From: an uncultured Pseudomonadota bacterium
GTDB lineage: Bacteria; UBA10199; GCA-002796325; 1-14-0-20-49-13
Assembly: GCA_964647545.1 (NCBI GenBank)
Contig: CAZYHS010000002.1
Span: forward strand, 34,695 to 98,694
Direction: 5' to 3'
Length of the DNA: 64,000 nucleotides
How positions within the stretch are numbered: the first letter of the stretch is position 1; each line of letters opens with the position of its first letter. A program made the position numbers and the translations under genes. The notes below the pieces were generated by a model. The model saw nothing but the letters and a program-made list of their open reading frames with translations, ran no database searches and was not told the DNA's origin. Positions 32,242 to 49,077 of this stretch are shown piece by piece.

Positions 32242-32302
32242 CGGTCTGCCCCAATTAGGGCCGGCTTGAATTGAAACGAACAAGAGGGGGAGGAGCACAC
32301 AG

Positions 32303-33457: not shown

Positions 33458-33568
33458 ACCGGCGGCAATTTTTTTCAATTTTCAACCCGCTTTTTTTGAG
33501 AAAAACTCAAGAATTTACCAACAATTTTATTTACAAGTTTCAAAGGGTTAGCTAAAGTCTGCCGCATT

Positions 33569-36500: not shown

Positions 36501-37255
36501 GAGAGGCGTCTTCAACAACTCCTTCCGAAGCCGAGCAGCTTCAGTCGATCGAAGGCAGAGTTACCGAACTCAAAGAGAAGATCGAAAAGATCGGCGCGGT
36601 CAATACCGATGCAATTAATGAGTATCAAGGGGTTGCCGAGCGCTACGATTTCTTAATGAAGCAGTCTGAGGACCTCAAAACCTCGATCGATACGCTGCAG
36701 AAGGCGATCATCAGGATCAATCGCACAAGTAAGGAACGTTTCTTTGAAACCTTTAACGCGGTTAACGACAGGTTCAAAACTCTTTTCCCGCGACTGTTCC
36801 ACGGCGGTGGAAAGGCCGAGCTCATCCTGACAGATCAGGAAAATATTCTTGAAAGCGGCATTGAGATAGTCGCGCAGCCCCCGGGAAAGAAGTTGCAGAG
36901 CGTTGGGTTGCTGTCGGGGGGTGAAAAGGCCCTTGTCGCCATCACTTTCATCTTCTCGATATTTCTCATTAAGCCGAGCCCATTCTGTTTGCTTGATGAA
37001 GTCGATGCCCCTCTTGACGATGCCAACATCGATCGCTTCAATCAGCTCGTGCGCGAGATGAGCAACCTCTCGCAGTTCATCATGATTACGCACAATCGCA
37101 GAACGATGGAGCTTGCCGACACTCTTTACGGCGTCACAATGGAAGACCCCGGCATCTCCAAGATCGTTTCGGTGAAGCTTGAGAATAGAAGAAGTCAGCA
37201 GCCTGAAACGCAGTCGAACGCCGAGTCGGGAGACCAGTCGCAAAGCGCTGCCTGA
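33569..37255 (+). CDS. smc: Chromosome segregation protein SMC
   Basis: The N-terminal Walker A is GPNGSGKSNVVDGIRWVMGEQ. It has long coiled coils and a central hinge. The C-terminal signature LSGGEKALVAITFIF and Walker B LLDEVDAPLD are present. It is 1228 aa. Confidence 0.92.
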   Translation: MRLKSLELIGFKSFVDRTVVSFDEGITSVVGPNGSGKSNVVDGIRWVMGEQSAKQLRGCDMSDVIFNGSEARPATGMASVFLTFDNSDGRAPAEYASYSEITIGRRLYRSGESEYYINKVPCRLKDITEFFLGTGVGTKAYSIVEQGQVERIVSAKPEERRALLEEAAGISKFKMHRDAALRKIEATKQNLARLADIISELEHQRNSLSRQAKKAERYKEFADELKNLDLGLASHKWRQWSSEASALRAKLEELSREEASKGAALSTEETQIDSARLELTETERSLNSLQEKNYELQNALRLNEAEVKFKTDALAQRRARIEEDSREIVELKTKKEERIKELESHNNTKVNSDIELASFEETVAEIEARLKEFQERLSAVGAEVESARREAVEQIRISSSAKARIEQVERLDADITSKVAVNQTEIDSIDSKISEIQAAIAAAEGLVSEMRGTKESLSQEISRLTNETTSAKGDLQHYQVELEDFSRSLSSKKSRLSSLEELCQSYEGYHDGVKAVLKRRAESPEFSGIYGTLSEVVETEPKYETALSAALGDKLQYVVVKSQHEGVAAIDYLKTQAAGRSTFVPMEISGGETEMAASSVTGEGVIGPMLNFVKFNNEYSAVCRHLLNDIVLVEDLGKAVGVWQSGGRKNTVVTLEGDVIDMHGVLSGGSGHDSSKQFLANKREIADLKQETARLADEVASRSAKVSELRDRVQVNEARIAQLKNQSHAHEVDFVHKERDLSGMAKEIENWRRNRDRLTLETATIAEQQLALRRERDELNTKIETACAIQSASEAKVAELATASDGVRAELAKVNEELTTKKVQLAASQEQATNLDRDIKRISDDIADIERQISSRDNDIVEGNAEIESNERALANAKSEISRLVQEIDAVTVSQNELKLKYDKMTEDVRAKELALRELRRTYEDVKNQVMDLKLEDTKQTEKIFYLEREIQERYHIDLASRNAEFSLDIKTSEQAEGEASSTTPSEAEQLQSIEGRVTELKEKIEKIGAVNTDAINEYQGVAERYDFLMKQSEDLKTSIDTLQKAIIRINRTSKERFFETFNAVNDRFKTLFPRLFHGGGKAELILTDQENILESGIEIVAQPPGKKLQSVGLLSGGEKALVAITFIFSIFLIKPSPFCLLDEVDAPLDDANIDRFNQLVREMSNLSQFIMITHNRRTMELADTLYGVTMEDPGISKIVSVKLENRRSQQPETQSNAESGDQSQSAA

Positions 37256-37275
37256 TTTTGGAAAATAAAAAATAA

Positions 37276-37313
37276 AAAACCCCGCCAGCCTTACGGTTAG
37301 CGGGGTTTTTGTT
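37276..37313. terminator. Bidirectional rho-independent terminator between smc (+) and the convergent small gene (-)
   Basis: It reads aaaaaaCCCCGC-cagccttacggtta-GCGGGGtttttgtttg. A GC-rich 6-bp stem is flanked by an A-run and a T-run. Confidence 0.7.
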
Positions 37314-37328
37314 TGCGTTAAGAAAAGC

Positions 37329-37667
37329 TTAGATCGCTTTTTGAACCGTCTTTGTCTTTTCGCGCATACGTTCGATGCGTGAGAGGAAAGAGCTCGCGCG
37401 GGCGATCGATGAGTTAATGCGGTTCTTTTCGTGAACGCATTTCACTTTTTTGCCCTCTTCAACAAGAGCTTTGCGCTTTTTGGAAGTGCGCTCTTCGTCC
37501 TTATCCAACTTTTCGAGGCGCGATTTCAAAACTTCCTTCGCGTGCTTTTTGAAGGCCGCTTCAAAGGCCTTTTGCCCCTCTTTTGAGGTGCGCTTTGTTT
37601 TGTTTTTCTTGAACTCCGGATTATCCTTAAGGAAATCGGCCCAAGTATATTTTTTGTTTAGTGACAT
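37329..37667 (-). CDS. Small (112 aa) highly basic Lys-rich hypothetical protein
   Basis: The ORF has a good RBS context and a Lys/Glu-rich helical sequence (KKNKTKRTSKEGQKAFEAAFKKHAKEVLK). It lies directly upstream, on the same strand, of tRNA-Ala. The family is unrecognised. Confidence 0.5.
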   Translation of the reverse strand: MSLNKKYTWADFLKDNPEFKKNKTKRTSKEGQKAFEAAFKKHAKEVLKSRLEKLDKDEERTSKKRKALVEEGKKVKCVHEKNRINSSIARASSFLSRIERMREKTKTVQKAI

Positions 37668-37690
37668 ATTTTCTCCAATCGAGTTACCGG

Positions 37691-37718
37691 CTAAAAACGC
37701 CGCTATCGGATAAGCGGC
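37691..37718 (-). terminator. Short hairpin plus U-run downstream of tRNA-Ala (minus strand)
   Basis: On the minus strand it reads gccgcttatccgatagcggc followed by gttttta, giving a 6-bp GC stem. Confidence 0.4.
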
Positions 37719-37733
37719 CTGTTACAGACTTTG

Positions 37734-37806
<73 letters not shown>

Positions 37807-37851
37807 TCTAAAATTTAAAGCTTCCGGCCGACGCCGCAAAGCCGGCACCTC

Positions 37852-38514
37852 TTATACGTTCCTGCCCAAAATATCAAGTGTTATCTGATCCAGCCGGCTG
37901 ACAATGTGGTCGGCCTTTGAGAGGTCTTGATTTGAGCCTGTCACGGGAGATTTCAGGGCGATAGCCAGACAGCCGGCAGCCTTTGCCGCCTCTATCCCCT
38001 TGGTTGCGTCTTCTATCACGGCGCAGCTGCTTGGAGGGGTAGAAAGGCCCTTTGCGGCCATTATAAAGGCATCTGGGGCCGGTTTGGGGTTGAGAACATC
38101 GTTTCCCGTGACGACCACGCTAAAAAAATCCTTTAATTTCAACTGGTTAATAACTTCATCAACATATTCTGGAACCCCGCTGGAGGCGACGGCACATTTA
38201 AAACCCCATTTTTTAATGTTTTCGACCAGTTCAAAGAGGCCCGGCATCGGTTCGACCCCTTTTTTCACAAGCTTCATAAAATATTTATCGCGGTGGCTGG
38301 TCAGTTCGGCGACATCGACCTTCATTTGAAAATGGTCGGCCAGAATTTCCATGATCTCTTTTATGCGCATGCCGTAGATCGACTGGCGGAGTTCTTCCGG
38401 AAGTTTCGGGGTCTTTATACCGAAATCCATCAGAGCCTGTTCGTATGCGGTGAAATGCAAAAAAGAGCTGTTAACAATCGTGTCGTCGAGGTCAAAAATT
38501 ATTGCTTCGATCAT
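37852..38514 (-). CDS. HAD-superfamily hydrolase, subfamily IA (beta-phosphoglucomutase/phosphatase-like)
   Basis: Motif I is IIFDLDDTIVNS. It has the characteristic cap-domain spacing and a C-terminal motif (GIEAAKAAG). Confidence 0.8.
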   Translation of the reverse strand: MIEAIIFDLDDTIVNSSFLHFTAYEQALMDFGIKTPKLPEELRQSIYGMRIKEIMEILADHFQMKVDVAELTSHRDKYFMKLVKKGVEPMPGLFELVENIKKWGFKCAVASSGVPEYVDEVINQLKLKDFFSVVVTGNDVLNPKPAPDAFIMAAKGLSTPPSSCAVIEDATKGIEAAKAAGCLAIALKSPVTGSNQDLSKADHIVSRLDQITLDILGRNV

Positions 38515-38596
38515 AATTAACCCGGTTTTGTCTGTTAGTTCTGTTAATTCCGTTATTTCAGTTCCAGCAGTGGATAACTGAACTGATCATTCGTTA
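38515..38596. repeat. Intergenic repeat element, copy 4 of the family, filling exactly the 82-bp gap between two minus-strand genes
   Basis: It reads ataattaacccggttttgtctgttagttctgttaattccgttatttcagttccagcagtggataactgaactgatcattcg. It shares ttccgttatttc and taactgaact with the other copies. Confidence 0.65.
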
Positions 38597-40279
38597 TTAT
38601 TTTTTGGAAAGTTCTGTTGTGACGATCGCGTTCACTTCGTCAGCTATGCGGTCGGTCTCTTTAATTGCCTGTTCTGCGCGGCTGCGGATTTTTGTGACCC
38701 ACTCGGAGTCGGAAATTCCACCCAGATTGATCAAAACGTTGTAGTAGGCGCCGTGAGCCGATGCGCGCCCCATGAGGGCCGCGACGCCGGCGTCGGAAAG
38801 TGAATTCTGGTTTCCGTTTTCTGCGGCGACTTTTGCGATGTCCAGCATTTTCGGGGTTGCTTCAAGAACTGAAAGTGGAACGAGCGTTGCGCCTTTGTTC
38901 GCTTCGCAAATCGCCGCGGCGCGCTTTGCCTTTTCTTCGTCGGTTGTTTTCGGCATGCCAAAGCAGGCCATGACCTTGTTGAAAGCATCGGTGTCGTCGT
39001 CGATTGCTTTTAGCATTGCCTCTTTTATCTTTTGCGCTTCGACGCCGATCTCCTGCATTTTGTTGTTGTGGGCTTCGTATCCTTTTTTGCCGTGAGTGAG
39101 AGCTGCGACCATCGAGGTGAGGGCGGCAGATAGCGAGCCGGCAAGGGCGGCTACCGAACCCCCTCCGGGGGCCGCCGAGTTGCGCGAAAGTTCGTTAGTG
39201 AAATCGGTGACCGTCATTCCTGTGAGCATAGGTTTTACCTCGAAGTGTTTTTCGATTATTTTTTTGTCGGCGTCGAACGGGGCCACGTCGTTTAAGCCTA
39301 AAGAGATTATAGCCGTTTTGATAATGTCCTCTTCGGGAATCCCCGCCGTCGTGTTTTGCTTCTGCAAATAGTGAAGTCCGCATTCGATGAGCGAACGCTT
39401 TGGGACAAGCCCGACGATCTCCGAGCCGGTCACTCGCACGCCGTACTTTTCGCCCTCTTTAATGGCGGCGTCAAAGACTTGTTGCATCGATGTTACGTGG
39501 TAGTTCGTCAGGTTGATCGTTATCTGCGCGCGGAAATATTCGGGAATGTACCAGCCGGTAGCCTTGCATTCTTTGAATAGGCCGGGGACGTAAACCGTTT
39601 CGCCGTTCGCATCGACGACTTTTTCGCCGCTTGCGTCGCGCTTGATGCGGCCGCGTTCACGCAGCGCGAATGCAATGTCCTTTGCGATCTTCGTGCTCGT
39701 CGTGTTCAGATTGATGTTGTAGGCTATCAGAAAATTTCGTGCGCCGATGACCGTCGCGCCCGATTTTGCGATCGACTCGCTCCATTTTTCGGGGCCGAAG
39801 TCGGGCCTGAATTTGCCTGATTCGAGCTTTGTTTTTAGCGCTTCGTATTCGCCGCTTCTGATGTCGGCGAGATTTCTGCGTTCGGGGGTCTGCGCTGCGA
39901 ATTCGTAGAGATAGACCGGAATGCCGAGTTCGCTTCCGACTCTTTTGGCCAGTATTTTGGAGAGCTCGACGCATTCGTCCATTGTGACGTTTGCTACCGG
40001 AACGAACGGGCAGACGTCTGTCGCCCCTTGTCTTGCGTGTTCGCCGCTGTGATGCCGCATGTCGATGACTTCCTGAGCTTTTTTAATGCCTAAAAATGCG
40101 GCTTCAAGAACGGCGTCAGGTTCGCCGGCGAACGTAACTACTGTGCGGTTTGTTGCGGCCCCCGGATCGACATCGAGGACTCTCACGCCGGCCATTCGCG
40201 CGATTTCGCTTGTGATCTGGTCGATCTTTGCCTTGTCGCGGCCTTCGCTAAAATTTGGTACGCACTCGACAATTTTCAT
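38597..40279 (-). CDS. ftcD: Bifunctional glutamate formimidoyltransferase / formimidoyltetrahydrofolate cyclodeaminase (FTCD-like)
   Basis: The N-terminal formiminotransferase motif is KIVECVPNFSEGRD. At 560 aa it is comparable to animal FTCD (formiminotransferase plus a C-terminal helical cyclodeaminase domain). Confidence 0.8.
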   Translation of the reverse strand: MKIVECVPNFSEGRDKAKIDQITSEIARMAGVRVLDVDPGAATNRTVVTFAGEPDAVLEAAFLGIKKAQEVIDMRHHSGEHARQGATDVCPFVPVANVTMDECVELSKILAKRVGSELGIPVYLYEFAAQTPERRNLADIRSGEYEALKTKLESGKFRPDFGPEKWSESIAKSGATVIGARNFLIAYNINLNTTSTKIAKDIAFALRERGRIKRDASGEKVVDANGETVYVPGLFKECKATGWYIPEYFRAQITINLTNYHVTSMQQVFDAAIKEGEKYGVRVTGSEIVGLVPKRSLIECGLHYLQKQNTTAGIPEEDIIKTAIISLGLNDVAPFDADKKIIEKHFEVKPMLTGMTVTDFTNELSRNSAAPGGGSVAALAGSLSAALTSMVAALTHGKKGYEAHNNKMQEIGVEAQKIKEAMLKAIDDDTDAFNKVMACFGMPKTTDEEKAKRAAAICEANKGATLVPLSVLEATPKMLDIAKVAAENGNQNSLSDAGVAALMGRASAHGAYYNVLINLGGISDSEWVTKIRSRAEQAIKETDRIADEVNAIVTTELSKK

Positions 40280-40317
40280 AGTTTATCCTGAAAATCTGTT
40301 TTAATTTCGCGCATCTT

Positions 40318-41493
40318 ATGGCAACAAAAGCCCGATTTCGCAACGAGATTTTAGATATGAAAAAACGCTCGATAAAAGACATTCCGCTGGATGAATTGCC
40401 TAAACTTGCCGAGGAGCTCGGCCAGAAAAAATTCGTGGCTGCGCAGCTTGTCGATTGGCTCTATAAAAAATGTGTGAGCTCGTTTGACGAAATGACGAGC
40501 TTGTCGAAACCTCTGCGTCAGCAGTTGAATCAGAAATTTTACGTGAGCCGATTGAAACTGGCAAAGAAACAAATTTCAAGCGACGGCACGCAAAAATATG
40601 CATGGAAGCTTTCGGACGGCAACGTGGTCGAGAGCGTTTTAATTCCGAGCGAAGAATATACCAAAGCCAGCAAATACGAAAAAGAGAAGGTGCCGCGGGA
40701 TGAGTGGCGCAAGCGTCTGACCTTGTGCGTTTCGACGCAGGTCGGCTGCGCGATGGGTTGCCAATTTTGCCGCACCGCCGACTTGGGGTTTATCAGAAAT
40801 CTTATGCAAAGCGAGATCATCGACCAGATAATCGATTCGCAGCGCGAATTTAACGGCTCCGATAAGATCACCCACTCGTCGGCGCGTATTTCTAACGTCG
40901 TGCTGATGGGAATGGGCGAGCCGCTGGCCAATTATGACAACGTGATGAGCGCCGTGAAAATCATGCTAAATTCGAAGGCGTTCAATTTGTCGAAGCGGCA
41001 TTTGACACTTTCTACTTCAGGACTTGTTGACGGAATCGAACGCATGGCCAAAGACGATCTTGGAATTAAACTTGCTCTGTCGCTGAATGCCACGACCGAC
41101 GAGCTGCGCGGTAAGATCATGCCTGTGAATAAAAAATATCCGCTGGCGAAGGTCTTTGAAGCTCTTAAAAAATTCGCATTCGAAACAGACGCCTACCGGA
41201 TAACTTTTGAATATGTGCTGCTGGCCGATCTTAACGACGGCGTTGAAGATGCAAAACGCCTTGTGCGTTTGATTTCCAATGTGCCGGCGAAGGTGAATTT
41301 AATTCCATTCAACGGGTTTGAAGACGCAGAATTTAAATCGCCTGACGAGGCGACTGTCGAGAGGTTCGCGCAATATCTTCGCAACAAGAACATTCAGGTT
41401 AATATTCGCGCCAGCCGCGGGCAGGACATCCTTGCCGCCTGCGGCCAGCTTGCGGCCAAGAATAACACACGACAGATGAAACAGCCTTCTTGA
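40318..41493 (+). CDS. rlmN: Dual-specificity 23S rRNA/tRNA adenine-C2 methyltransferase RlmN (radical SAM)
   Basis: The radical-SAM cluster motif is CVSTQVGCAMGCQFCRT. The second conserved Cys region and an RlmN-type N-terminal domain are present. An alternative start MKKRSIK lies at 40357. Confidence 0.85.
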   Translation: MATKARFRNEILDMKKRSIKDIPLDELPKLAEELGQKKFVAAQLVDWLYKKCVSSFDEMTSLSKPLRQQLNQKFYVSRLKLAKKQISSDGTQKYAWKLSDGNVVESVLIPSEEYTKASKYEKEKVPRDEWRKRLTLCVSTQVGCAMGCQFCRTADLGFIRNLMQSEIIDQIIDSQREFNGSDKITHSSARISNVVLMGMGEPLANYDNVMSAVKIMLNSKAFNLSKRHLTLSTSGLVDGIERMAKDDLGIKLALSLNATTDELRGKIMPVNKKYPLAKVFEALKKFAFETDAYRITFEYVLLADLNDGVEDAKRLVRLISNVPAKVNLIPFNGFEDAEFKSPDEATVERFAQYLRNKNIQVNIRASRGQDILAACGQLAAKNNTRQMKQPS

Positions 41494-41565
41494 TTTATTA
41501 TATTTTTAGTTTAATATCTTCGTACTCAATTTTGTAATACCGAACAATTGGAAGGGGAAACATCA

Positions 41566-43650
41566 ATGAAAAAGCTTTATTCTAAAGTAACGTCGCTGCT
41601 GGTTTTGGCAATGCTTGCCGTAGGGTGCGGCGGAGGAGGTTCGTCCACAATAACGGTCACTCTTGCCCCTGCCGATGGTGCTAAAAACCAAACGGCAAGT
41701 GTTAGCGTCAAGGCAACTTTTAGCGCTGCCGTAACGGCTCCAACGGCAGGGTGGGAAAGTGTTTTTACAGTTAAGAAGGCCGGCGGGGTAAATGAATGTA
41801 ATGCATACGAATTGGATCAGACTTCAACTATTCTAACCTGCTTGCACGATGATTTTGAAGGCGAGACAGAGTACACCTCATCCATGCTTGCATTTTCGAA
41901 CGTAATTGCAGCGTCTGCCAAATTCACCACTGCCGGCACGGATTCATATTCGATCGGCGGAGTTCTGACGGGGCTTGCCAGCTCTCGCAATGTTGTTCTG
42001 CAAAACAATGGCGGTGACAATCTTACGCTTACGGCAAATGGTAATTTTACATTCGGTACAGAGTTAAACAACGGGGATGCCTATGCAGTTACCGTAAAAA
42101 CAGCTCCTACAGGACAAGCCTGTAAGGTGACCAACGGAACCGGCACGGTCAATACGGCCAATGTTACAAATATTGCGGTGGCTTGCGAGAGCAGATGGCT
42201 TTCCGGAAATTTTAACATGATTTATTCCCCTGCTCTTGTCGCAGATTTTAAAGTGACATTAAGTGACAACGGTGTAGGAATTGCTTCGGGTAAAACGGCC
42301 TCAAATTATAATATTTCGATCGCTTATACATCGGGATACGCAACTTGCGCAGGTTCAATCACTGCCGAAAATACAAATATCAAATGTGGCGGATGTTCGA
42401 TCGCGCCAAATGGAGACACAGTTAGTTTCACGGCCTGTCCGATTCCAGATACCGGTTCAACCAATATTACTTTCAGCAAATTGCCGATCGGTGACGGTTC
42501 GCTTACCGGCACTTACGCCCTTGGGGATTCGCTTTATACAATGCAAGAGAATGCGAACGAGGGGTTGTCGGCTAGCGACCCTGCCCAAGTGACAATTTAC
42601 TATTCAAAAGGATATGCAGCTTGCAATGCCATAGTTTCAGGGGAGGATCCGGAAGCCTGCTCGGCCTGCGCTATTTTGGAAGGCGGCAACAGACTTAATC
42701 TTACTTGCCCCGGCGTTGGGGAGATATCTTTAATTAAAGTGGCTACCGTGGCCTTTACTCCGCTTAACGGTACTAGCGGCGTCGAAACAGACACTTTGAT
42801 TAAGGCCACGTTCAGCAAAGCCGTATCTGCCCCTGAAGGCGGATGGGATACAGTTTTTACAGTTAAAAATGCGGCGGGGACGGGCACAAATGTGTGCACT
42901 GGATATGCTTTTAATGGCCCCCAGACAGAGGTGACATGCCTTCATGAGGCTTTAGCGGAAGGTGCGGTCTATAAGGCCGATATCTCTGATTTAGATGGGG
43001 TTTTGGATGGTTCCGCAGAATTTACTCCTCTTACGGCAAGCATTACTTCCAAAGATTCTCCTGTCAGTACAACAGCTGGTAATACGGTCACGGTTTCCGT
43101 TCAGTTTAGCAGAGTTCCGGAGATTGAGCCGACAGTTACCGTGGCTGGAGGAACGGCTGAAGCCGGTGCTTGTGCTTCCTCGGGGCTCGATCATAATTAT
43201 GAGTGCGAGATTAACAGCGTTGCCGGTTGCTCGACCAATGTAAACTATTCGGTTGGGATAAAGCTGAGCACTATTAGCATGAATGGTTTTGCGTTCAACT
43301 CTCTAGACGATGAATTTCAATGGGGTAACGACATTCTAACCGATATGATAGCTGCCGACGCTTCCAAATGCTGGGATAAACAGGAGACATCGGGGGACAT
43401 CGAAACAGTTTATAACATGGATACAGAGGGGATCAATTTCATAGTGTCCAATGGTGGTGGGCCATACGTTGAGCTGGCTAAGTCTTTTACATTTGAGTCC
43501 GATGACAACCTTGCGGTTTCGGCAAAGATAATGCCGGCCATCCAAGTGCCTTCGACAGATGGTTCCGAGTCCAAACTATTCTTTGCGGACCCAACCCAAG
43601 AGGCCAGAATAGGGTTTCAGGGGGGGGCAATATCCGGCGTTTGGGTTTGA
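41566..43650 (+). CDS. Large repetitive lipoprotein (Ser/Thr/Gly/Asn-rich, internal ~350-aa duplications). Its reading frame is interrupted at a G8 tract.
   Basis: The start MKKLYSKV has an RBS ggaagggg and the lipobox is LAVGC. The segment SAAVTAPTAGWESVFTVKKAGGVNECNAYELDQTSTILTCLHD is repeated as SKAVSAPEGGWDTVFTVKNAAGTGTNVCTGYAFNGPQTEVTCLHEA. The stop at 43648-43650 lies 21 nt after the poly-G run at 43620-43627. Confidence 0.75.
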   Translation: MKKLYSKVTSLLVLAMLAVGCGGGGSSTITVTLAPADGAKNQTASVSVKATFSAAVTAPTAGWESVFTVKKAGGVNECNAYELDQTSTILTCLHDDFEGETEYTSSMLAFSNVIAASAKFTTAGTDSYSIGGVLTGLASSRNVVLQNNGGDNLTLTANGNFTFGTELNNGDAYAVTVKTAPTGQACKVTNGTGTVNTANVTNIAVACESRWLSGNFNMIYSPALVADFKVTLSDNGVGIASGKTASNYNISIAYTSGYATCAGSITAENTNIKCGGCSIAPNGDTVSFTACPIPDTGSTNITFSKLPIGDGSLTGTYALGDSLYTMQENANEGLSASDPAQVTIYYSKGYAACNAIVSGEDPEACSACAILEGGNRLNLTCPGVGEISLIKVATVAFTPLNGTSGVETDTLIKATFSKAVSAPEGGWDTVFTVKNAAGTGTNVCTGYAFNGPQTEVTCLHEALAEGAVYKADISDLDGVLDGSAEFTPLTASITSKDSPVSTTAGNTVTVSVQFSRVPEIEPTVTVAGGTAEAGACASSGLDHNYECEINSVAGCSTNVNYSVGIKLSTISMNGFAFNSLDDEFQWGNDILTDMIAADASKCWDKQETSGDIETVYNMDTEGINFIVSNGGGPYVELAKSFTFESDDNLAVSAKIMPAIQVPSTDGSESKLFFADPTQEARIGFQGGAISGVWV
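43620..43627 (+). repeat. G8 homopolymer tract at the junction of two co-directional ORFs. It is a candidate slipped-strand phase-variation site, or a frameshift error.
   Basis: It reads cag-ggggggg-caa. Removing one G puts 41566-43650 in frame with 43658-44107, and the alternative frame is open from 43613. Confidence 0.6.
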
Positions 43651-43657
43651 CTATCTT

Positions 43658-44107
43658 ATGTTATTGCGGGGAGAGGTGTTTGAGCTGCCGGATACTTGGA
43701 CTGGAATTAACGCTGCTGCAAAGGCTGATGGCGCTTTTGGTTCAATGTCATATGATCAGTCTTATTACGCGTGCGTGGTCCACTTTAACGGAAGCGTTAC
43801 GTCATATTTGAGTCTTGATGGTTCGACTTGGATACAGACGGGGAGTTCAAATATGGAGTGCAATCTAGCAATGCCTGACCATTGCACTAATTTGTCTGAT
43901 TTAACGAATTATGACACGACCCGATGGAATTCGTTGATAACCCAGATACATGCTAGTGCGACATTCGGTGAAGGGTCAGAAGCTGCAAATTTTACGCAAG
44001 CCTTTGGGTATATGAGATTTAATACAGATTCCGAAGCGGTTGACGGCACATCTGCGAGCTGCCCATCGCTTGATATAGGGACTCCGCATAATGACGAGCC
44101 AAAGTGA
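43658..44107 (+). CDS. Probable C-terminal continuation (149 aa) of the upstream lipoprotein, separated by a -1 frameshift at the G8 tract
   Basis: It has the same S/T/G/N-rich composition and no RBS of its own. The frame is open upstream to 43613, inside the preceding gene. It is followed by a strong terminator. Confidence 0.55.
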   Translation: MLLRGEVFELPDTWTGINAAAKADGAFGSMSYDQSYYACVVHFNGSVTSYLSLDGSTWIQTGSSNMECNLAMPDHCTNLSDLTNYDTTRWNSLITQIHASATFGEGSEAANFTQAFGYMRFNTDSEAVDGTSASCPSLDIGTPHNDEPK

Positions 44108-44127
44108 TTTTTTTCAAGATAATAAAA

Positions 44128-44156
44128 AGCCCCGAGCAAAAACTCGGGGCTTTTTC
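44128..44156 (+). terminator. Rho-independent terminator
   Basis: It reads aaaaAGCCCCGAG-caaaaa-CTCGGGGCTtttttcatttt. Confidence 0.75.
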
Positions 44157-44248
44157 ATTTTAAGCTAGTTTTTCCGCCGCTTGCAAATGCGCCCGATTAG
44201 TGATAGCGCCGGTTTGAATCAATAAATCAAATTAACGGAGAGGTAATT

Positions 44249-45112
44249 ATGGCGGAGAGACTTGTCGGTATTATCGGCGGTAGCGGTTTGTATGGGATGG
44301 AAGGGTTTAAAATTATTGAAGAAAGACGCGTTTCTACCCCGTTTGGCGAGCCGAGCGATGCGGTTATCATAGGCGAGCTTTCGGGGCGTAGGGTAGCTTT
44401 CATGCCGCGTCACGGTCGAGGACATCTTATCAATCCCAGTAAGATCAATTATCGCGCCAATATTTTTGCAATGAAATCTGTTGGGGTCGAGTGGCTAATT
44501 TCTGTCAGCGCCGTCGGCTCTTTGCGCGAGGAGATCGTCCCCGGGCACCTTGTGATTGTTGACCAGTTCATCGACAAGACCAACGGACGCACTCAGTCGT
44601 TTTACGATGACGGCGTCGTGGTGCACGTTGCATTTGCCGACCCAGTCTGTAAAGAGCTTGCCGGCATGCTCTATGAGTCCGCTAAAAAACTTGGAGTGAC
44701 CGTTCATAACGGCGGCGCTTATGTTTGCATGGAAGGTCCCGCGTTTTCAACCCGCGCCGAATCTCACATGCATCGCGCGTGGGGTGCAAATGTCGTCGGT
44801 ATGACGAACATGCCCGAGGCTAAGCTCGCACGAGAGGCCGAAATTTGCTACTCGACGATCGCTTTAGCGACCGATTACGACTGCTGGCGCGCCGGCGAAC
44901 ATGTCTCTGCCGACATGGTGGTTGCGACAGTTAAAAAGAATATCGCAAACGCGCAGCGTGTGTTGCGCGATGTGATCCCAAACATATCGGCCGACCGCAA
45001 ATGTGCTTGCGCACACGCTCTTCAAGGTGCAGTTCAGTCAGACGTTTCAAAGGTTACGCCTAAGACCCGCGAGAAATACGCCGTGTTGCTCGGCAGCGTG
45101 CTTGGGAAATAG
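44249..45112 (+). CDS. mtnP: S-methyl-5'-thioadenosine phosphorylase
   Basis: It has the PNP/MTAP family N-terminus RLVGIIGGSGLY. The motifs NMPEAKLAREAEICY and ALATDYDCW are present. Confidence 0.88.
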   Translation: MAERLVGIIGGSGLYGMEGFKIIEERRVSTPFGEPSDAVIIGELSGRRVAFMPRHGRGHLINPSKINYRANIFAMKSVGVEWLISVSAVGSLREEIVPGHLVIVDQFIDKTNGRTQSFYDDGVVVHVAFADPVCKELAGMLYESAKKLGVTVHNGGAYVCMEGPAFSTRAESHMHRAWGANVVGMTNMPEAKLAREAEICYSTIALATDYDCWRAGEHVSADMVVATVKKNIANAQRVLRDVIPNISADRKCACAHALQGAVQSDVSKVTPKTREKYAVLLGSVLGK

Positions 45113-45119
45113 GTGAAAT

Positions 45120-45617
45120 ATGCATGTTGGCGAATATTTAAAAAGCGAGCGCGAAAAAAGAGGGATTTCTCTTGAAGAGGTCGCTCGCATTACAAAAGTC
45201 ACCATCAGATATCTGCAGACCATCGAGGCCGGCAGTGTCGAGGGACTTCCCAGTACGATCTTTGTGCGCGGGTTCGTGAAAGACTACGCAAAAACGATAG
45301 GTCTTGACGGCGACGATATCGTAAAAAGATTTGATGCCGAAAAGAAGATCGTTCGCTCAAATCACGTTGCATATCACTCGCCGCTAGGGCTCGATGAACA
45401 GCGTGTGGCCGCAAGCGCTGCGAATGCCGCAAAAGACGCGGTGACGCCCCAACGCGGTGTAAAGCGAAGTGTTGTGTGCGTTTCAACCGCCCGCAAGAAG
45501 CGCGAATATTTTTCAAAGGCAAAGGCTCTCTTGAAAAGGCATGTTACAGGGCGCGTCGTTTTTTTCATAATCGCGTCGATTGTCGTCGGACTTGCGGCCT
45601 TTTGTTCGGCCCGCTGA
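45120..45617 (+). CDS. RodZ-like helix-turn-helix (XRE) protein with a C-terminal tail-anchor TM and no periplasmic domain
   Basis: The HTH is GEYLKSEREKRGISLEEVARITKVTIRYLQTIE. The RodZ-type signature STIFVRGFVKDYAKTIGLD is present. There is a single TM at the extreme C-terminus (VVFFIIASIVVGLAAF). Confidence 0.65.
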   Translation: MHVGEYLKSEREKRGISLEEVARITKVTIRYLQTIEAGSVEGLPSTIFVRGFVKDYAKTIGLDGDDIVKRFDAEKKIVRSNHVAYHSPLGLDEQRVAASAANAAKDAVTPQRGVKRSVVCVSTARKKREYFSKAKALLKRHVTGRVVFFIIASIVVGLAAFCSAR

Positions 45618-45621
45618 AAAC

Positions 45622-46338
45622 ATGGAATACAAAAGCCCATCGATAATTTTAAGGACGATCGATTTCGGTGAGGCCGACCGTCTGGTGACTTTCTTTACGT
45701 CTGAACACGGAAAACAGAAGGGGGTCGCAAAGAACGCCAAGAAATCGGCAAGACGTTTTGGCGGAGGACTGGAGCCCGGTTCTGTGGTGATGGCCCGCTA
45801 TGTCGATAGATCGGGGGCCGAGATCGTAAGGTTCGAAGATGTCGTTGTCGAATTCCCCGTCTGGCGCATTGCGACGTCGTTGCCTAAAATAGCGATGCTC
45901 GGAGTTTCTCTCGAACTGGCCGACAAAATGCTGCCGGCCGGGCTTGTTTCGAAAGGGCGATTCGAGCTTTTGGTGAGATGGATAAGATTTCTGGCGGAAG
46001 AGGAGCCTCGCGAGGCTCATCTTCACGCCTTTTTTTGCAGATGGCTTTCGGCCTCGGGGTTAAATCCGGTTTTCGACAAGTGCGCTTCATGTAGTGCGCC
46101 GGACGCCGCCTCGTGGTTCATTTCCATTCAACATGGCGGCTTGATATGCGACGGTTGCGTCGGTTCTAACGCCGAGTTCAAAGTCGATGCGGCTACAAAA
46201 GCTTATCTCACGTCGCTTTCCTCGGGGACCTTGCCGCAAGCCGGCAGTAAAACGGCCGGCGATATTTTTGAGGCGATCGTAACGCATGCCGCCGCGTCAA
46301 AGCTTAGGTCGCTTGATGTTTTACACGAACTAAAATGA
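45622..46338 (+). CDS. recO: DNA repair protein RecO
   Basis: The N-terminal OB-fold reads SPSIILRTIDFGEADRLVTFFTSEHGK. The C-terminal zinc motif is CASCSAPD ... CDGC. The start is MEYKSP at 45622. Confidence 0.85.
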   Translation: MEYKSPSIILRTIDFGEADRLVTFFTSEHGKQKGVAKNAKKSARRFGGGLEPGSVVMARYVDRSGAEIVRFEDVVVEFPVWRIATSLPKIAMLGVSLELADKMLPAGLVSKGRFELLVRWIRFLAEEEPREAHLHAFFCRWLSASGLNPVFDKCASCSAPDAASWFISIQHGGLICDGCVGSNAEFKVDAATKAYLTSLSSGTLPQAGSKTAGDIFEAIVTHAAASKLRSLDVLHELK

Positions 46339-47207
46339 AGCAACGTGATTTTGACATAGCGATACTTCTATCGGTGCTCCTGCATCTTTTATTTGTGGGA
46401 TTTTTCTATTTTGTCGGCCCGCTTTTAGAGACAGATCGGGAGACTGTCGCGCCGATCGAAGTCTTTTTGCAAAAACCCGACGGAGGCTGGCAGATCGCCG
46501 ATATTGATGAGCCCGCCGTTCAGCAAAAACCCGACAAATCGCGGCTTCTTGGGATGTACAACCAGAAGGCCGACGAAGAGACGGTCGCATTAAGCCGGAC
46601 CGGTCCGCGTGGAAGCGGCGGCGGACAGAAGCAGGGGAGCAAAGGGAGCCCGAAGACAGGCTCGGACAGCGCTGAAAAACAGAAAACTGCCCAGCGTGAA
46701 AAAATATCGCCCAAACAAAAGGGGAAGGATATTAATCTCTATCAGTTCGACCGGAAAATATTTTCGTCGAACAAGCCGCAGCAAAAGTCCGATTCGATGA
46801 TGATATCCAGCGGCCGCGGAGAGGGGGGCCTCTCCGAAGATTTCTTCCCCGATTTCAAAGTCGGCGGCAAAACCTACGTCAACGTTTTGCGTTATCCCGA
46901 AGTTGAGTATTTCGTACGTTTGAAGAGAATTTTTAGAATGACTTGGGATCCGGTCAGCGCGATTCGCAGCAAGCCCGTTAATTTGTCGGTGTCGCGCGGA
47001 GTCGTTTCGTGTGTTTTGGGGGTTTCGGTCGATAAAGCCGGAAATATGTCGGAGCTGTTCGTGCTTAAAAGTTCCGGAATACCGGTCTATGACGCTGAAG
47101 CTCTACGCACAATCCGTGCCTCGAGCCCGTTTGCCAGCCCGCCGGAAAAATTCCTCGAAAAGGACGGCGTCCTTCGTATGAGCTGGACCTTCGCCCTTTA
47201 TATCTGA
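46335..47207 (+). CDS. TonB-family protein (N-terminal TM, Pro/Lys/Gly-rich linker, C-terminal TonB domain)
   Basis: The start overlaps the recO stop (ATGA). The TM is ILLSVLLHLLFVGFFYFVGPL. The C-terminal domain reads VSCVLGVSVDKAGNMSELFVLKSSGIPVYDAEALRTIRASSPFASPP. Confidence 0.7.
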   Translation: MKQRDFDIAILLSVLLHLLFVGFFYFVGPLLETDRETVAPIEVFLQKPDGGWQIADIDEPAVQQKPDKSRLLGMYNQKADEETVALSRTGPRGSGGGQKQGSKGSPKTGSDSAEKQKTAQREKISPKQKGKDINLYQFDRKIFSSNKPQQKSDSMMISSGRGEGGLSEDFFPDFKVGGKTYVNVLRYPEVEYFVRLKRIFRMTWDPVSAIRSKPVNLSVSRGVVSCVLGVSVDKAGNMSELFVLKSSGIPVYDAEALRTIRASSPFASPPEKFLEKDGVLRMSWTFALYI

Positions 47208-47217
47208 CCCGCTTAGA

Positions 47218-47793
47218 TCAATAGAACACGGCCTGCAATCCAAGAAGCGCGGTGCCACCTATGAAAAATGCACCATCACCGTTTGCTTTGCCTCCGCCGA
47301 TGTGGCCCAAGATCTCGGTGTAAAACGCCAAAGGCGACCTAGGCGAAAATGGCACGATGTCGATGTGCAATCCGGCGGTAAAGGCAAGCGCCCAATAGCT
47401 TCCGGACGATGAACCGTCATCGGAGGGTTCGCCGATCCCGACATAGCCACCTTCACCTGAGCCTCTTATTGGGCCCCATTCGCCCGAAAGACCGACGCGC
47501 GAACCGAACTGCAGCCAATCCGACATCGATATCGAAGCGACGTAAGAGGAGGTCAGACGGTTTGCTCCGCTGCCCAGAAGTCTGTGGTATTCGATTATGT
47601 TCCAGTCGATATGGGCGGTGACCTTTTGGCATTTATTTATAAATGGCAAGCACGTCTCAGATGCTGACAGGCCGGTAAGATTTAACCCGCCGCCAACGGG
47701 AATGCTTAGCCCTCCCTGATTTGAATATGAAATGCCGCCCGTAGCTATCGGGCTAAGTCCGAAATATAAACTTGTGTCTCCAAGAAAACCCAT
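47218..47793 (-). CDS. Gly/Ser-rich hypothetical protein with an outer-membrane-beta-barrel-like C-terminus (...LLGLQAVFY) and no obvious signal peptide
   Basis: The start MGFLGD at 47793 has an excellent RBS (aaggagg). The longer ORF reaching 47865 would overlap the upstream BNR gene by 56 nt. Confidence 0.5.
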   Translation of the reverse strand: MGFLGDTSLYFGLSPIATGGISYSNQGGLSIPVGGGLNLTGLSASETCLPFINKCQKVTAHIDWNIIEYHRLLGSGANRLTSSYVASISMSDWLQFGSRVGLSGEWGPIRGSGEGGYVGIGEPSDDGSSSGSYWALAFTAGLHIDIVPFSPRSPLAFYTEILGHIGGGKANGDGAFFIGGTALLGLQAVFY

Positions 47794-47809
47794 AATTTCC
47801 TCCTTGTAA

Positions 47810-48946
47810 TTAGTTTGCCTTGCTTGTGATTCGTGAACTGAACAGACCTTTATCGGTTCCGACAAAAATGGACGCGCCGTCCGACGAAATGGTTCTTACT
47901 TCGTTGAACGGAGCTCCTTCGACCTTGCTCCATGATGTTCCTTGGGCCCCTTTAAAAAATAATCCGTCTAAAGTGCCGGCGAAAGTTGTGTCGCCTGTCG
48001 TAAGGATAGCCATGACATCCGACAGTTCACCGGCTTCAGACCATTCAGAATTTTTGTATTCGCTAATGTCGCTTGAGGTGCCGGCAAGATAATTGCCTGA
48101 GCTTATGACATGAATGGAGAGGACGTTCTTTCCTTTCAGGCCGGTCATTTCCCATTTTTCTCCCATGTCGCCGCTCTTCCAAAAGCCGTTGCTTGTAGCC
48201 GCCAACAGGAGACCGCCGTCTTTTTCGATATCGTTAACCACCAGTCCGAACAGTTCGTTTCCGCCTGTGTTTTTGATCGGGGCGCCGCTCCACAGATACG
48301 ACCTGTTGCTAGGCTCAAGAATGTGCTGCAAGATTTTGTCGTTATAAACAAGCCCTTGATCGTAGGCTACAATCGCTCTGTTTCCAGAAAAAATTATGTC
48401 GCAAACCCGCCTGACACCGATCGTCTCTTTTTTCCCTGACGAGGTGACTCCCTTCTGCTGAGCTCCCTTACAGGTCAGATGCGAACCGCTTTCGCCTCCT
48501 TGCGTTGAGATGGTTCTTAACGTGTCGACCACGTGCCAATCTGCGCCGTTATTTTCCGAATAGAAAAGAAAGCCGCTTGTTCCGGCAAATGCTCGAGCGC
48601 CAAAAAATGCTATCGCCGAGATCGGAAAGTCGGCAAAGCGTTCAAAATTATCCTTGGGCCATTTTATCGCTTTAAATTTTTCAACCGTTGCGATCAGGTC
48701 TATGGAATTGTTTTTCCACAGCTGGTTTGAAAAAACATCGACCGAACTTAACGCCGGCGATTCATTGGCGTTGCCGGTCATAAGAGGTCTTCCTGAACCG
48801 TCTGTTGCGATCGAATACGTGTCTGAATCTGTAAGTTGCTCCCAGTTAAACGGCGCAGTAGCGTTTGCAAATGCATTGGCCGCCGTAAAAGCAATAAATG
48901 AAAATACAGCTAGAAACGCGACTGCGAGTTGATAAGCTCTCTTCAT
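47810..48946 (-). CDS. Secreted BNR/Asp-box repeat protein (beta-propeller, Ycf48/sortilin-like)
   Basis: The signal peptide is MKRAYQLAVAFLAVFSFIAFTAANAFA. The Asp-box motifs are SENNGADWHVV, SGDMGEKWEMT and GAQGTSWSKV. Confidence 0.7.
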   Translation of the reverse strand: MKRAYQLAVAFLAVFSFIAFTAANAFANATAPFNWEQLTDSDTYSIATDGSGRPLMTGNANESPALSSVDVFSNQLWKNNSIDLIATVEKFKAIKWPKDNFERFADFPISAIAFFGARAFAGTSGFLFYSENNGADWHVVDTLRTISTQGGESGSHLTCKGAQQKGVTSSGKKETIGVRRVCDIIFSGNRAIVAYDQGLVYNDKILQHILEPSNRSYLWSGAPIKNTGGNELFGLVVNDIEKDGGLLLAATSNGFWKSGDMGEKWEMTGLKGKNVLSIHVISSGNYLAGTSSDISEYKNSEWSEAGELSDVMAILTTGDTTFAGTLDGLFFKGAQGTSWSKVEGAPFNEVRTISSDGASIFVGTDKGLFSSRITSKAN

Positions 48947-49021
48947 AAAATTTCTCCTAAAATTGAAAATTATAAATGACCTAAACTTTTCGGCCGATAT
49001 TATAAAAAGTTGCTAAATTAT

Positions 49022-49060
49022 TTAAAAAAAAGCCGGCACCGCATGAAGCGGTACCGGCTT
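49022..49060 (-). terminator. Rho-independent terminator downstream of gcvPB (minus strand)
   Basis: On the minus strand it reads aagccggtaccgc-ttcat-gcggtgccggcttttttttaa. The stem is 11 bp with one mismatch, followed by a U8 run. Confidence 0.7.
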
Positions 49061-49077
49061 GATAATAAACATGTTTT

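What the first reader, a model, noticed from the sequence alone, without database searches (positions are those of the whole stretch)
41566..44107. G8 homopolymer tract splits an ~850-aa repetitive lipoprotein gene into two ORFs: phase-variable switch or frameshift error
The 700-aa lipoprotein ORF stops 21 nt after a run of eight G (43620-43627). In the -1 deletion frame, translation continues without a stop (Q G G Q Y P A F G F D Y L M L L R G E V ...) through the 149-aa downstream ORF to 44107. That ORF has the same Ser/Thr/Gly/Asn-rich composition, no RBS, and a strong terminator right after it. The protein has large internal duplications. Surface lipoproteins controlled by poly-G slippage are a classic contingency-locus design. 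Alternatively this is a homopolymer sequencing error or a recent pseudogenisation.
Basis: seen in the sequence. Interest (0 to 1): 0.55.

Follow-up and report, generated by a model that had tools for sequence, protein, structure and literature searches.

The report
Poly-G frameshift splits surface lipoprotein gene
A run of eight G's really does cut one 846-residue surface lipoprotein gene of an uncultured bacterium into two reading frames, through the middle of a sugar-binding-type domain; the same break is present in a second strain, so it is not a sequencing error, and it is most likely an ordinary slippage-type on/off switch seen in the "off" state.

Summary

A sequencing error is unlikely. 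Two JGI metagenome contigs of a conspecific strain (about 97.5% ANI, with a different flanking haplotype) also carry G8. The assemblies show no homopolymer-length disagreement over about 37 kb.

The downstream part is not decaying. It has no stop codons, its indels are in frame, and pN/pS is 0.37 in the ORF2 frame against about 1.5 in the other frames (p=0.018).

A reversible slipped-strand switch resting in the OFF state is the best reading (about 0.45), but it is unproven. No G7, G9 or G10 allele was found, and the window holds no second long G/C tract. A recent or adaptive truncation is the main rival. This is a new member of a known kind, of modest interest.

The parts
41476..41504 (+). 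Promoter-like site upstream of the lipoprotein gene (ATGAAA-17-TATATT)
   Evidence: Consensus scan. This is only a 9/12 match and is not evidence of function.
41550..41558 (+). Shine-Dalgarno-like GGAAGGGGA, 7 nt before the ORF1 ATG
   Evidence: Read from the sequence.
41566..43650 (+). ORF1: 694-aa truncated lipoprotein as encoded with G8, ending in the out-of-frame tail AISGVWV*
   Evidence: The public collection holds the identical 694-aa protein, P0001.
41566..41628 (+). Signal peptide with lipobox LLVLAMLAVG|C (Cys21), followed by GGGGSS
   Evidence: Match to a lipobox pattern that I wrote from memory of PROSITE PS51257. Homologues carry the same ...[SAG]CGGG lipobox.
41653..41928 (+). 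Big_5 (bacterial Ig-like) domain 1
   Evidence: Pfam PF13205 with 2 stretches. Repeat alignment to domain 2: 38% identity, E 1e-19.
41944..42189 (+). Repeat module of about 80 aa (SYSIGGVLTG...NIAVACE) that many large repetitive proteins also carry
   Evidence: The distant hits cover only about 10% of the query. That this module is the shared part is my inference; I did not align the hits to confirm it.
42310..42711 (+). Two Cys-rich modules (an old internal duplication)
   Evidence: 32% identity, E 2e-6.
42745..43026 (+). Big_5 domain 2
   Evidence: Pfam PF13205, best stretch aa 395-475, E 3.2e-9.
43036..43278 (+). Beta-sandwich linker domain that precedes the C-terminal domain and is conserved in the family
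   Evidence: Alignment A2 and strands E8-E54 of the model.
43294..44107 (+). C-terminal concanavalin-A-like lectin/glucanase-fold domain (FNSLDDEF...CW...FGYMRF...SASCP), interrupted by the frameshift
43620..43627 (+). G8 homopolymer, the frameshift site. G7 or G10 gives the full-length protein. G8 gives a stop after 7 codons. G9 gives a nonsense tail of about 60 aa.
   Evidence: The same G8 is present in L002 and L003.
43628..43657 (+). The +1-frame codons QYPAFGFDYL between the tract and ORF2's ATG. They are homologous to intact relatives, which shows that the ancestral gene read through here.
   Evidence: P0127 has ...QYP...DFMLLMG. L010 has FAYDFMILYR, and its tblastn match starts at query residue 168.
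43658..44107 (+). ORF2: 149 aa, annotated separately in the source genome. It is the C-terminal 3/5 of the jelly-roll domain and has no SD sequence and no signal peptide.
   Evidence: (P0121). Its Met is residue 174 of the model, inside strand E171-178.
44124..44155 (.). Hairpin with a 14-bp stem and T-runs on both sides (bidirectional terminator-like) that ends the transcription unit

Best explanation
Shown here: positions 41566-44107 are one ancestral gene for a surface lipoprotein of about 846 aa. Its layout is signal peptide and lipobox, Big_5 Ig-like domains, repeat modules, then a C-terminal concanavalin-A-like beta-jelly-roll domain. A one-base excess in a G tract (G8 instead of G7) shifts the frame in the middle of that last domain. 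The encoded product is therefore a 694-aa lipoprotein that lacks about 3/5 of the jelly roll. The rest of the domain survives as an intact, untranslatable +1-frame ORF. The G8 is real in the DNA and is shared by two strain lineages of the same species.

Inferred: the tract acts as a slipped-strand (replication slippage) ON/OFF switch of the contingency-locus type. Loss of one G or gain of two restores the full-length protein with its lectin-like head, and G8 or G9 switches it off. All sampled populations are predominantly OFF, with ON cells expected as a minority. Periodic selection of ON cells would explain why the downstream frame is still open and still under purifying selection.
For: One gene, split:
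- phmmer against 1.84 billion representatives finds P0127 (E 1.5e-32, 36% identity) and about ten other lipoproteins that align to fused residues 4-317 in a single stretch.
- The alignment shows conserved motifs on both sides of the break, and +1-frame homology starts before ORF2's ATG.

Real, not an error:
- L002 and L003 come from two JGI samples and carry a different haplotype, with 4 substitutions in the 27 nt upstream of the tract. Both have G8.
- About 37 kb of window-versus-JGI alignment contains no homopolymer-length differences.

Downstream part maintained:
- It has no stop codon in 160 codons in either lineage, and the gene lengths called in L002 and L003 (148 and 147 aa against 149) imply that the indels are in frame.
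- The ORF2 frame shows 10 synonymous and 13 nonsynonymous changes, pN/pS 0.37, against about 1.5 in the other two frames. Fisher p=0.018 against neutrality.
- This is not different from the upstream part (0.22; p=0.19).

Fits the switch design:
- The product is a predicted surface lipoprotein with a lectin-like head.
- The gene is a divergence hotspot: 91.4% identity against about 97.5% for the surrounding genome, and pN 3-15 times that of its neighbours.
- No downstream gene is put at risk, because a terminator follows directly.
- There is a precedent for a consensus-OFF G-tract switch in a non-pathogen. The Bifidobacterium breve UCC2003 pilin genes are split by a G tract, and the two ORFs were annotated separately there too (PMC9187656).
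Against: - No tract-length polymorphism was seen. All three assemblies have G8.
- Exact look-ups of the G7, G9 and G10 products in a 15-billion-protein collection found nothing. A homologue search with the fused C-terminus found only the split ORF2.
- The window holds no other G/C tract of 7 or more, so there is no sign of a genome-wide contingency repertoire.
- The tract arises trivially from CAG GGG GGG, and GGG is a common Gly codon in this gene (17 of 70).
- The closest intact homologue has no tract at the site.
- G8 is at the short end of tracts known to switch at high rates, and the organism's mismatch-repair status is unknown.
- The selection signal rests on 23 substitutions. In a recombining population (mosaic pS of 0-0.20 in neighbouring genes), some of them could have been imported from lineages where the gene was intact.
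Confidence: 0.45

Rival explanations
1. One-way lesion. A G7-to-G8 slip truncated the gene recently, or truncation was favoured and spread between strains by recombination. The downstream ORF is a young pseudogene remnant that has not yet had time to decay. Reversion plays no biological role.
For: All assemblies are G8 and no ON allele was found. The 300 nt around the tract (43400-43730) are 97-99% identical between strains, while the rest of the gene is 86-95% identical. That is compatible with recent exchange of a segment carrying G8. Neighbouring genes show mosaic pS. There is only one long G/C tract in 64 kb.
Against: G8 sits on two different flanking haplotypes. The downstream frame shows purifying selection that cannot be told apart from that on the upstream part. 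There are no secondary disabling mutations in either lineage.
Confidence: 0.3
2. Recoding. G8 is the functional genotype. A fraction of transcripts (RNA-polymerase slippage on the G run) or of ribosomes (+1 slip of tRNA-Gly on GGG GGG G) yields the full-length protein, so the gene makes both a truncated and a full-length lipoprotein.
For: G8 is conserved in both strain lineages while the downstream frame is kept. Perfect re-pairing of the tRNA is possible in the +1 frame on GGG_GGG_G (read from the sequence). The A/G-rich run resembles the Shine-Dalgarno-like stimulator of prfB (my own recollection, not tested here).
Against: The 0-frame codon after the slip site is GCA, which is not a stop codon; whether it is rare was not measured. 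The stop lies 7 codons further on. No unusual RNA structure follows the tract (z 0.25). There is no Rfam match. The closest intact homologue has no tract. The known bacterial transcriptional-slippage sites listed in PMC3711429 are runs of A or T.
Confidence: 0.1
3. Sequencing or assembly artefact: the true tract is G7 and the gene is intact.
For: Homopolymers are the classic site of indel errors. The JGI contigs break 87-108 nt upstream of the tract and carry N's 150 nt downstream, so this region was hard to assemble.
Against: Three assemblies from three samples and two haplotypes give the same length. There is no other homopolymer disagreement in about 37 kb, and the coding indels elsewhere in the comparison, bar two noted separately, are in frame or compensated.
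Confidence: 0.05
4. Two genuine genes. ORF2 is translated on its own by termination-reinitiation, since its ATG lies 7 nt after ORF1's stop.
For: Stop and start lie within 10 nt of each other, which is the translational-coupling signature used in PMC3711429. The source genome annotates two proteins.
Against: ORF2 starts inside a beta-strand of a single jelly-roll domain. It has no signal peptide, so it could not meet the exported N-terminal half. It has no Shine-Dalgarno sequence. Homology in its frame extends upstream of its ATG. The full-length homologues aligned here are single proteins.
Confidence: 0.03

Closest known systems
Intragenic G-tract ON/OFF switches of the Bifidobacterium breve UCC2003 sortase-dependent pilin genes (bbr_0113, bbr_1889; PMC9187656)
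   Same: Both are surface-protein genes of a non-pathogen split into two annotated ORFs by a homopolymeric G tract. In both, the downstream ORF lacks a Shine-Dalgarno sequence and a secretion signal, and the reference genotype is OFF. In B. breve the full-length product needs replication slippage, as is proposed here.
   Different: In B. breve the tract lies near the 5' end, so OFF abolishes the protein, and slippage was measured directly by maximum-depth sequencing. Here the tract lies 80% of the way along the gene, so OFF still yields a 694-aa lipoprotein that lacks only its C-terminal domain. No length heterogeneity has been observed here.
Poly-G/poly-C contingency loci of Campylobacter, Neisseria, Haemophilus and Helicobacter (simple-sequence-repeat phase variation; PMC5953494, PMC539331, and the review cited in PMC3711429)
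   Same: A homopolymeric G tract lies inside the coding region of a surface-exposed product, and frame restoration depends on tract length.
   Different: Those organisms carry many such tracts per genome, often of 8-13 G or more, with documented length polymorphism within and between strains. Here there is one G8 in 64 kb, with no polymorphism, in an uncultured free-living lineage. From my own knowledge: switching rates fall steeply below about 8 G and depend on mismatch-repair status.
Mycoplasma surface-lipoprotein phase variation by a coding-region homopolymer (M. fermentans P78 poly-A; Theiss and Wise 1997, cited in PMC3711429)
   Same: A lipoprotein whose expression is toggled by a frameshift in a short homopolymer within the coding sequence.
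   Different: That case involves a poly-A tract in a host-associated mollicute and was demonstrated experimentally. The proteins are unrelated.
Unnamed family of Big_5 / ConA-like-domain lipoproteins (P0127, P0128, P0129, P0131-P0144; MAGs labelled Nitrospirales, Myxococcales and 'bacterium')
   Same: Shared architecture: a lipobox ...CGGG, Big_5 domain(s), a beta-sandwich linker, and a C-terminal domain with the motifs FNSxDxEF, CW, Y.C, DG, NM.C, F.RF and SADCP.
   Different: The window protein is longer, with an extra repeat module, two Cys-rich modules and a second Big_5 domain. Among the members whose full gene could be inspected, it is the only one interrupted.

Membership tests
Simple-sequence-repeat (slipped-strand) phase-variable contingency locus | A slippage-prone repeat tract (homopolymer of about 7-8 or more) lies inside the reading frame or promoter | tested here: met
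   G8 at 43620-43627, inside the coding sequence.
Simple-sequence-repeat (slipped-strand) phase-variable contingency locus | Changes in tract length toggle between full-length and truncated product | tested here: met
   In silico only: G7 and G10 give 846 and 847 aa, G5/G8/G11 give about 694 aa, and G6/G9 give about 748 aa.
Simple-sequence-repeat (slipped-strand) phase-variable contingency locus | Tract-length polymorphism between strains or assemblies | tested here: not met
   The window, L002 and L003 all have G8. The G7, G9 and G10 products are absent from the 15-billion-protein collection. No fused close relative was found. The sample is only two lineages.
Simple-sequence-repeat (slipped-strand) phase-variable contingency locus | Tract-length heterogeneity within a population, with reversible switching | not testable with these tools
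   This needs raw reads or amplicon sequencing of SRR11845625 and of JGI samples 3300027914 and 3300026163.
Simple-sequence-repeat (slipped-strand) phase-variable contingency locus | The OFF-state downstream frame is kept open and under purifying selection | tested here: met
   pN/pS is 0.37 in the ORF2 frame against about 1.5 in the other frames, p=0.018. There are no stops, and the gene lengths imply in-frame indels. The sample is small (23 substitutions).
Simple-sequence-repeat (slipped-strand) phase-variable contingency locus | The product is exposed at the cell surface | tested here: met
   Prediction only: lipobox LLVLAMLAVGC, Big_5 Ig-like domains, and a ConA-like lectin fold.
Simple-sequence-repeat (slipped-strand) phase-variable contingency locus | The genome carries a repertoire of such tracts beyond chance | tested here: inconclusive
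   There is only one G/C run of 7 or more in 64 kb, and none besides the same site in about 47 kb of conspecific contigs. The whole genome was not available.
Programmed +1 ribosomal frameshift (prfB type) or transcriptional slippage | A shift site with a stimulator: a stop or rare codon in the A site, a correctly spaced Shine-Dalgarno-like element, or an RNA structure | tested here: not met
   The A-site codon after GGG GGG is GCA, and the stop is 7 codons downstream. The fold z-score is 0.25. There is no Rfam element.
Programmed +1 ribosomal frameshift (prfB type) or transcriptional slippage | The frameshift site is conserved across homologues of several genera | tested here: not met
   It is conserved only in the two conspecific strains. 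The full-length homologues aligned here are unshifted, and the closest one, P0127, has no tract at the site.
Decaying pseudogene | Neutral evolution (dN/dS about 1) and secondary disabling mutations downstream of the lesion | tested here: not met
   A very young pseudogene cannot be excluded.
Big_5 / ConA-like-domain lipoprotein family (unnamed) | Lipobox, Big_5 domain(s), and a contiguous C-terminal domain with the motifs FNSxDxEF...CW...F.RF...SADCP | tested here: met
   Pfam PF13205, phmmer hits spanning the whole domain, and the invariant columns of alignment A2. The contiguity criterion is met only by the G7 or G10 reading.

The most novel reading that the evidence does not exclude
G8 is the selected, stable genotype. 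The gene is decoded in two ways. Standard reading gives a 694-aa lipoprotein without the lectin head. Slippage of RNA polymerase or a +1 ribosomal slip on the G run gives a minority full-length form. If so, a poly-G tract would be serving as a fixed-ratio recoding signal in a free-living bacterium, rather than as a DNA-level switch.
Probability: 0.1. Interest if true: 0.6.

Novelty: new member of a known kind. Interest (0 to 1): 0.3.

Why it matters
If the switch reading is right, this is a contingency-type locus in an uncultured, free-living lineage. Its nearest named RlmN relatives are 'Deltaproteobacteria bacterium' MAGs at 56-58% identity. Phase variation has been studied almost entirely in host-associated bacteria. 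The locus would toggle a lectin-like head on an otherwise retained surface lipoprotein, which may bear on attachment, phage or predator evasion.

There is also a practical point. The public annotation lists two unrelated hypothetical proteins (694 aa and 149 aa) where there is one gene. The 149-aa 'protein' is a domain fragment and should not seed protein families.

Taken on its own, a homopolymer frameshift in a surface-protein gene is a common and well-understood situation.

Tried and rejected
- A full-length homologue search was swamped by a shared 80-aa repeat module and gave no orthologue apart from the protein itself.
- A search with the C-terminus alone found only ORF2.
- Two metagenome-contig scans, one by protein and one by a DNA pattern allowing G6-G10, found nothing. 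That collection evidently lacks even the JGI contigs that were found by another route.
- The genome-contig scan returned only three distant homologues and not the source genome.
- Exact look-ups of P0001 and ORF2 found no contig on record.
- A literature search for the sample accessions found nothing.
- The two G7 runs near the homologue in L007 lie in the neighbouring 657-aa ORF, outside the homologue, and are not relevant.
- I considered a +1 slip at the stop context GUU UGA C. It would give ...AISGVWV-DYLMLL.... Homologues match the FGFDY reading better (FAYDF in L010), tRNA-Val re-pairing would be poor, and no Shine-Dalgarno-like element is correctly spaced. I rejected this as the main route.
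- I considered a -1 heptamer (G GGU UUG). It is in the wrong register and would lead to the wrong frame.
- PADLOC, NCBIfam and Pfam scans of the two ORFs in the strain-specific insertion gave only one weak hit.
Full report
**1. What is in the sequence**

Positions 43620-43627 are eight G's. This is the only G or C run of seven or more in the 64-kb window. G+C run counts fall 58, 7, 0 and 1 for lengths 5 to 8.

ORF1 starts at the ATG at 41566, preceded by GGAAGGGGA 7 nt upstream, and ends at the TGA at 43648-43650. It encodes 694 aa.

ORF2 (43658-44107, 149 aa) is in the +1 frame. It has no Shine-Dalgarno sequence and is followed by a 14-bp hairpin with T-runs at 44124-44155.

- G7 or G10 fuses the two ORFs into 846 or 847 aa.
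- G8 stops after seven out-of-frame codons (AISGVWV*).
- G6 and G9 give a nonsense tail of about 60 aa.

The two ORFs share an unusual composition: S+T+G+N is 38% and 36%, against 21-23% in housekeeping genes of the window.

**2. It is one gene**

A phmmer search of 1.84 billion representative proteins with the fused C-terminal 322 residues returned the two halves as separate database entries (P0001, P0121). It also returned a set of lipoproteins: P0127 (582 aa, 36% identity, E 1.5e-32), P0128, P0129, P0131-P0134, P0136, P0137, P0140 and P0144. Each of these aligns to residues about 4-317 in a single stretch, straight across the break at residue 163/164.

In the alignment (A2), conserved motifs lie on both sides of the break:
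- upstream: FNSxDxEF, CW, DFAVS;
- downstream: Y.C, Y.S.DG, NM.C, FGY.RF, SADCP.

The break itself falls in a variable, indel-rich loop. The +1-frame codons between the tract and ORF2's ATG (QYPAFGFDYL) are homologous to intact relatives. P0127 has QYP...DFMLLMG, and a further relative in L010 has FAYDFMILYR, with its tblastn match starting at residue 168, six codons before ORF2's Met.

The N-terminal part has a lipobox (LLVLAMLAVG|C) and two Big_5 Ig-like domains (PF13205). The two Big_5 domains are 38% identical to each other. There is also a repeat module shared with many large repetitive proteins and two Cys-rich modules.

**3. It is not a sequencing error**

The neighbouring genes led to contigs of a conspecific strain in two JGI metagenomes:
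- L004 and L003 from sample 3300026163;
- L005 and L002 from sample 3300027914.

These are 97.3-97.6% identical to the window over about 37 kb. L002 and L003 cover the tract, and both have G8. Their flanking haplotype differs from the window at four positions in the 27 nt upstream.

Across all the window-versus-JGI alignments there is not one homopolymer-length difference. Most indels are intergenic, multiples of three, or a compensating pair. The exceptions are a 1-nt indel at the 3' end of rlmN and a 2-nt deletion in one sample; neither is in a long homopolymer run. A systematic error that gave the same wrong length in three assemblies and nowhere else is improbable.

**4. The downstream part is being maintained**

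Between the two lineages:

| Region | Synonymous | Nonsynonymous | pS | pN | dN/dS or pN/pS |
|---|---|---|---|---|---|
| ORF1 (to 43512) | 98 | 70 | 0.209 | 0.047 | dN/dS 0.20 |
| After the tract, ORF2 frame | 10 | 13 | 0.098 | 0.036 | pN/pS 0.37 |

The other two frames of the downstream part give about 1.5. The departure from neutrality downstream is significant but rests on few sites (Fisher p=0.018). It does not differ from the upstream part (p=0.19). Neither lineage has a stop in the 160 downstream codons, where chance would give p of about 1e-4 to 1e-5. The called gene lengths (147 and 148 aa against 149) imply that the indels there are in frame.

One caveat applies. The population is recombining, since neighbouring genes have pS from 0 to 0.20. 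The 300 nt around the tract are 97-99% identical, while the rest of the gene is 86-95% identical. Part of the signal may therefore predate the lesion, and the G8 segment may have been exchanged between strains.

**5. What it most likely is**

Steps shown here: a real +1G frameshift at a slippage-prone tract truncates a surface lipoprotein within its lectin-like C-terminal domain. The lesion is shared by two haplotypes. The remainder of the gene is intact and constrained.

Step inferred: the tract works as a reversible slipped-strand ON/OFF switch, and the sampled populations are predominantly OFF. This fits the gene class. The product is a surface lipoprotein, and the gene is a divergence hotspot at 91.4% identity against 97.5% for its surroundings, with pN 3-15 times that of its neighbours. 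It also has a close precedent in the Bifidobacterium breve pilin genes. Those are split by a G tract, annotated as two ORFs, and OFF in the reference genome, and the full-length pilin depends on replication slippage at the tract (PMC9187656).

Against this reading:
- No length polymorphism was found.
- No second long G/C tract occurs in the window.
- The tract is a trivial consequence of CAG GGG GGG in a gene where GGG is a common Gly codon.
- The nearest intact homologue has no tract at the site.

My probabilities are:
- switch: about 0.45;
- one-way recent or adaptive truncation: about 0.30;
- recoding on G8: about 0.10;
- artefact: about 0.05;
- two genuine genes: about 0.03.

**6. Recoding**

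I considered recoding and rank it low. A +1 slip of tRNA-Gly on GGG GGG G would re-pair perfectly. However, the next 0-frame codon is GCA, not a stop, the stop is seven codons away, nothing folds unusually downstream (z 0.25), and Rfam finds nothing.

A slip at the stop context GUU UGA C would give a junction (VWV-DY) that matches the homologues less well than the DNA-level reading (FGF-DY).

The known bacterial transcriptional-slippage sites listed in PMC3711429 are A or T runs.

**7. Comparison with known systems, and novelty**

The locus works like a homopolymer contingency locus. It meets the structural criteria: a tract in frame, length-dependent frame restoration, a predicted surface product, and a maintained OFF-state frame. 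It fails the one tested population criterion, length polymorphism between assemblies, on a sample of only two lineages. Within-population heterogeneity could not be tested. It should be filed as a candidate, not as a demonstrated member.

The protein belongs to an unnamed family of Big_5 / ConA-like-domain lipoproteins found in MAGs labelled Nitrospirales, Myxococcales and 'bacterium'. The host is an uncultured lineage whose RlmN is only 56-58% identical to the nearest named relatives, which are 'Deltaproteobacteria bacterium' MAGs.

Novelty: a new member of a known kind. Interest is modest, at 0.3.

The main practical consequence is an annotation correction, because the 694-aa and 149-aa entries are one gene. 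The locus also gives a clear, cheap test, which is to count G's in the reads.

Noticed in passing
window 41566-44107 compared with L004/L003: The lipoprotein gene is a divergence hotspot between conspecific strains: 91.4% nucleotide identity against about 97.5% in the flanks. pN is 0.047, against 0.000-0.015 in the neighbouring genes. A hypervariable patch at 43733-43932 is only 87.6% identical and contains an in-frame indel.
   Followed up: partly
L002:1, L003:1 (= window 43533); end of L004 (= window 43512): Contigs from two different JGI samples start at exactly the same base, 87 nt upstream of the G tract. The upstream contig of one of those samples ends 20 nt before that base. L002 and L003 also carry short runs of N (5 and 2) at about window 43773. 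The assemblers had trouble here, which could reflect co-existing alleles in the population.
   Followed up: no
window 47204-49094: This is a 1.9-kb insertion relative to the JGI strain, where 88 nt stand in its place. It carries two minus-strand genes. One is a 378-aa protein with a hydrophobic, signal-peptide-like N-terminus and only a weak NCBIfam hit (F510_1955 family glycosylhydrolase, E 4.7e-8, below the cut-off). The other is a Gly-rich protein of about 190 aa. Neither has a Pfam or PADLOC match.
   Followed up: partly
window 32863 (L005:~870): In JGI sample 3300027914 a 2-nt deletion (TA) splits the 384-aa ORF (window 32303-33457) into ORFs of 201 and 164 aa. The window and L004 have it intact.
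   Followed up: no
window 30318-47203 compared with L002-L005: Synonymous divergence between the two strains is strongly mosaic from gene to gene: pS is 0.000 in the 384-aa ORF, 0.005 in SMC, 0.17 in FTCD and 0.20 in MTAP. This indicates frequent homologous recombination in the population.
   Followed up: partly
L010:1-468 (Logan SRR22387827): A distant relative (P0130, 117 aa) consists of only the C-terminal half of the same jelly-roll domain. Its homology begins at the position equivalent to the window's break, and an in-frame stop lies at nt 31-33. The contig starts at nt 1, so it cannot be told whether this is a second split copy at the same loop.
   Followed up: partly
window 41472 (3' end of rlmN) and 51162/51165: A 1-nt indel alters the last residues of RlmN between the strains (391 against 386 aa). 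A compensating pair of a 1-nt deletion and a 1-nt insertion, 3 nt apart, lies in the 443-aa glycine-cleavage (GDC-P domain) gene.
   Followed up: no
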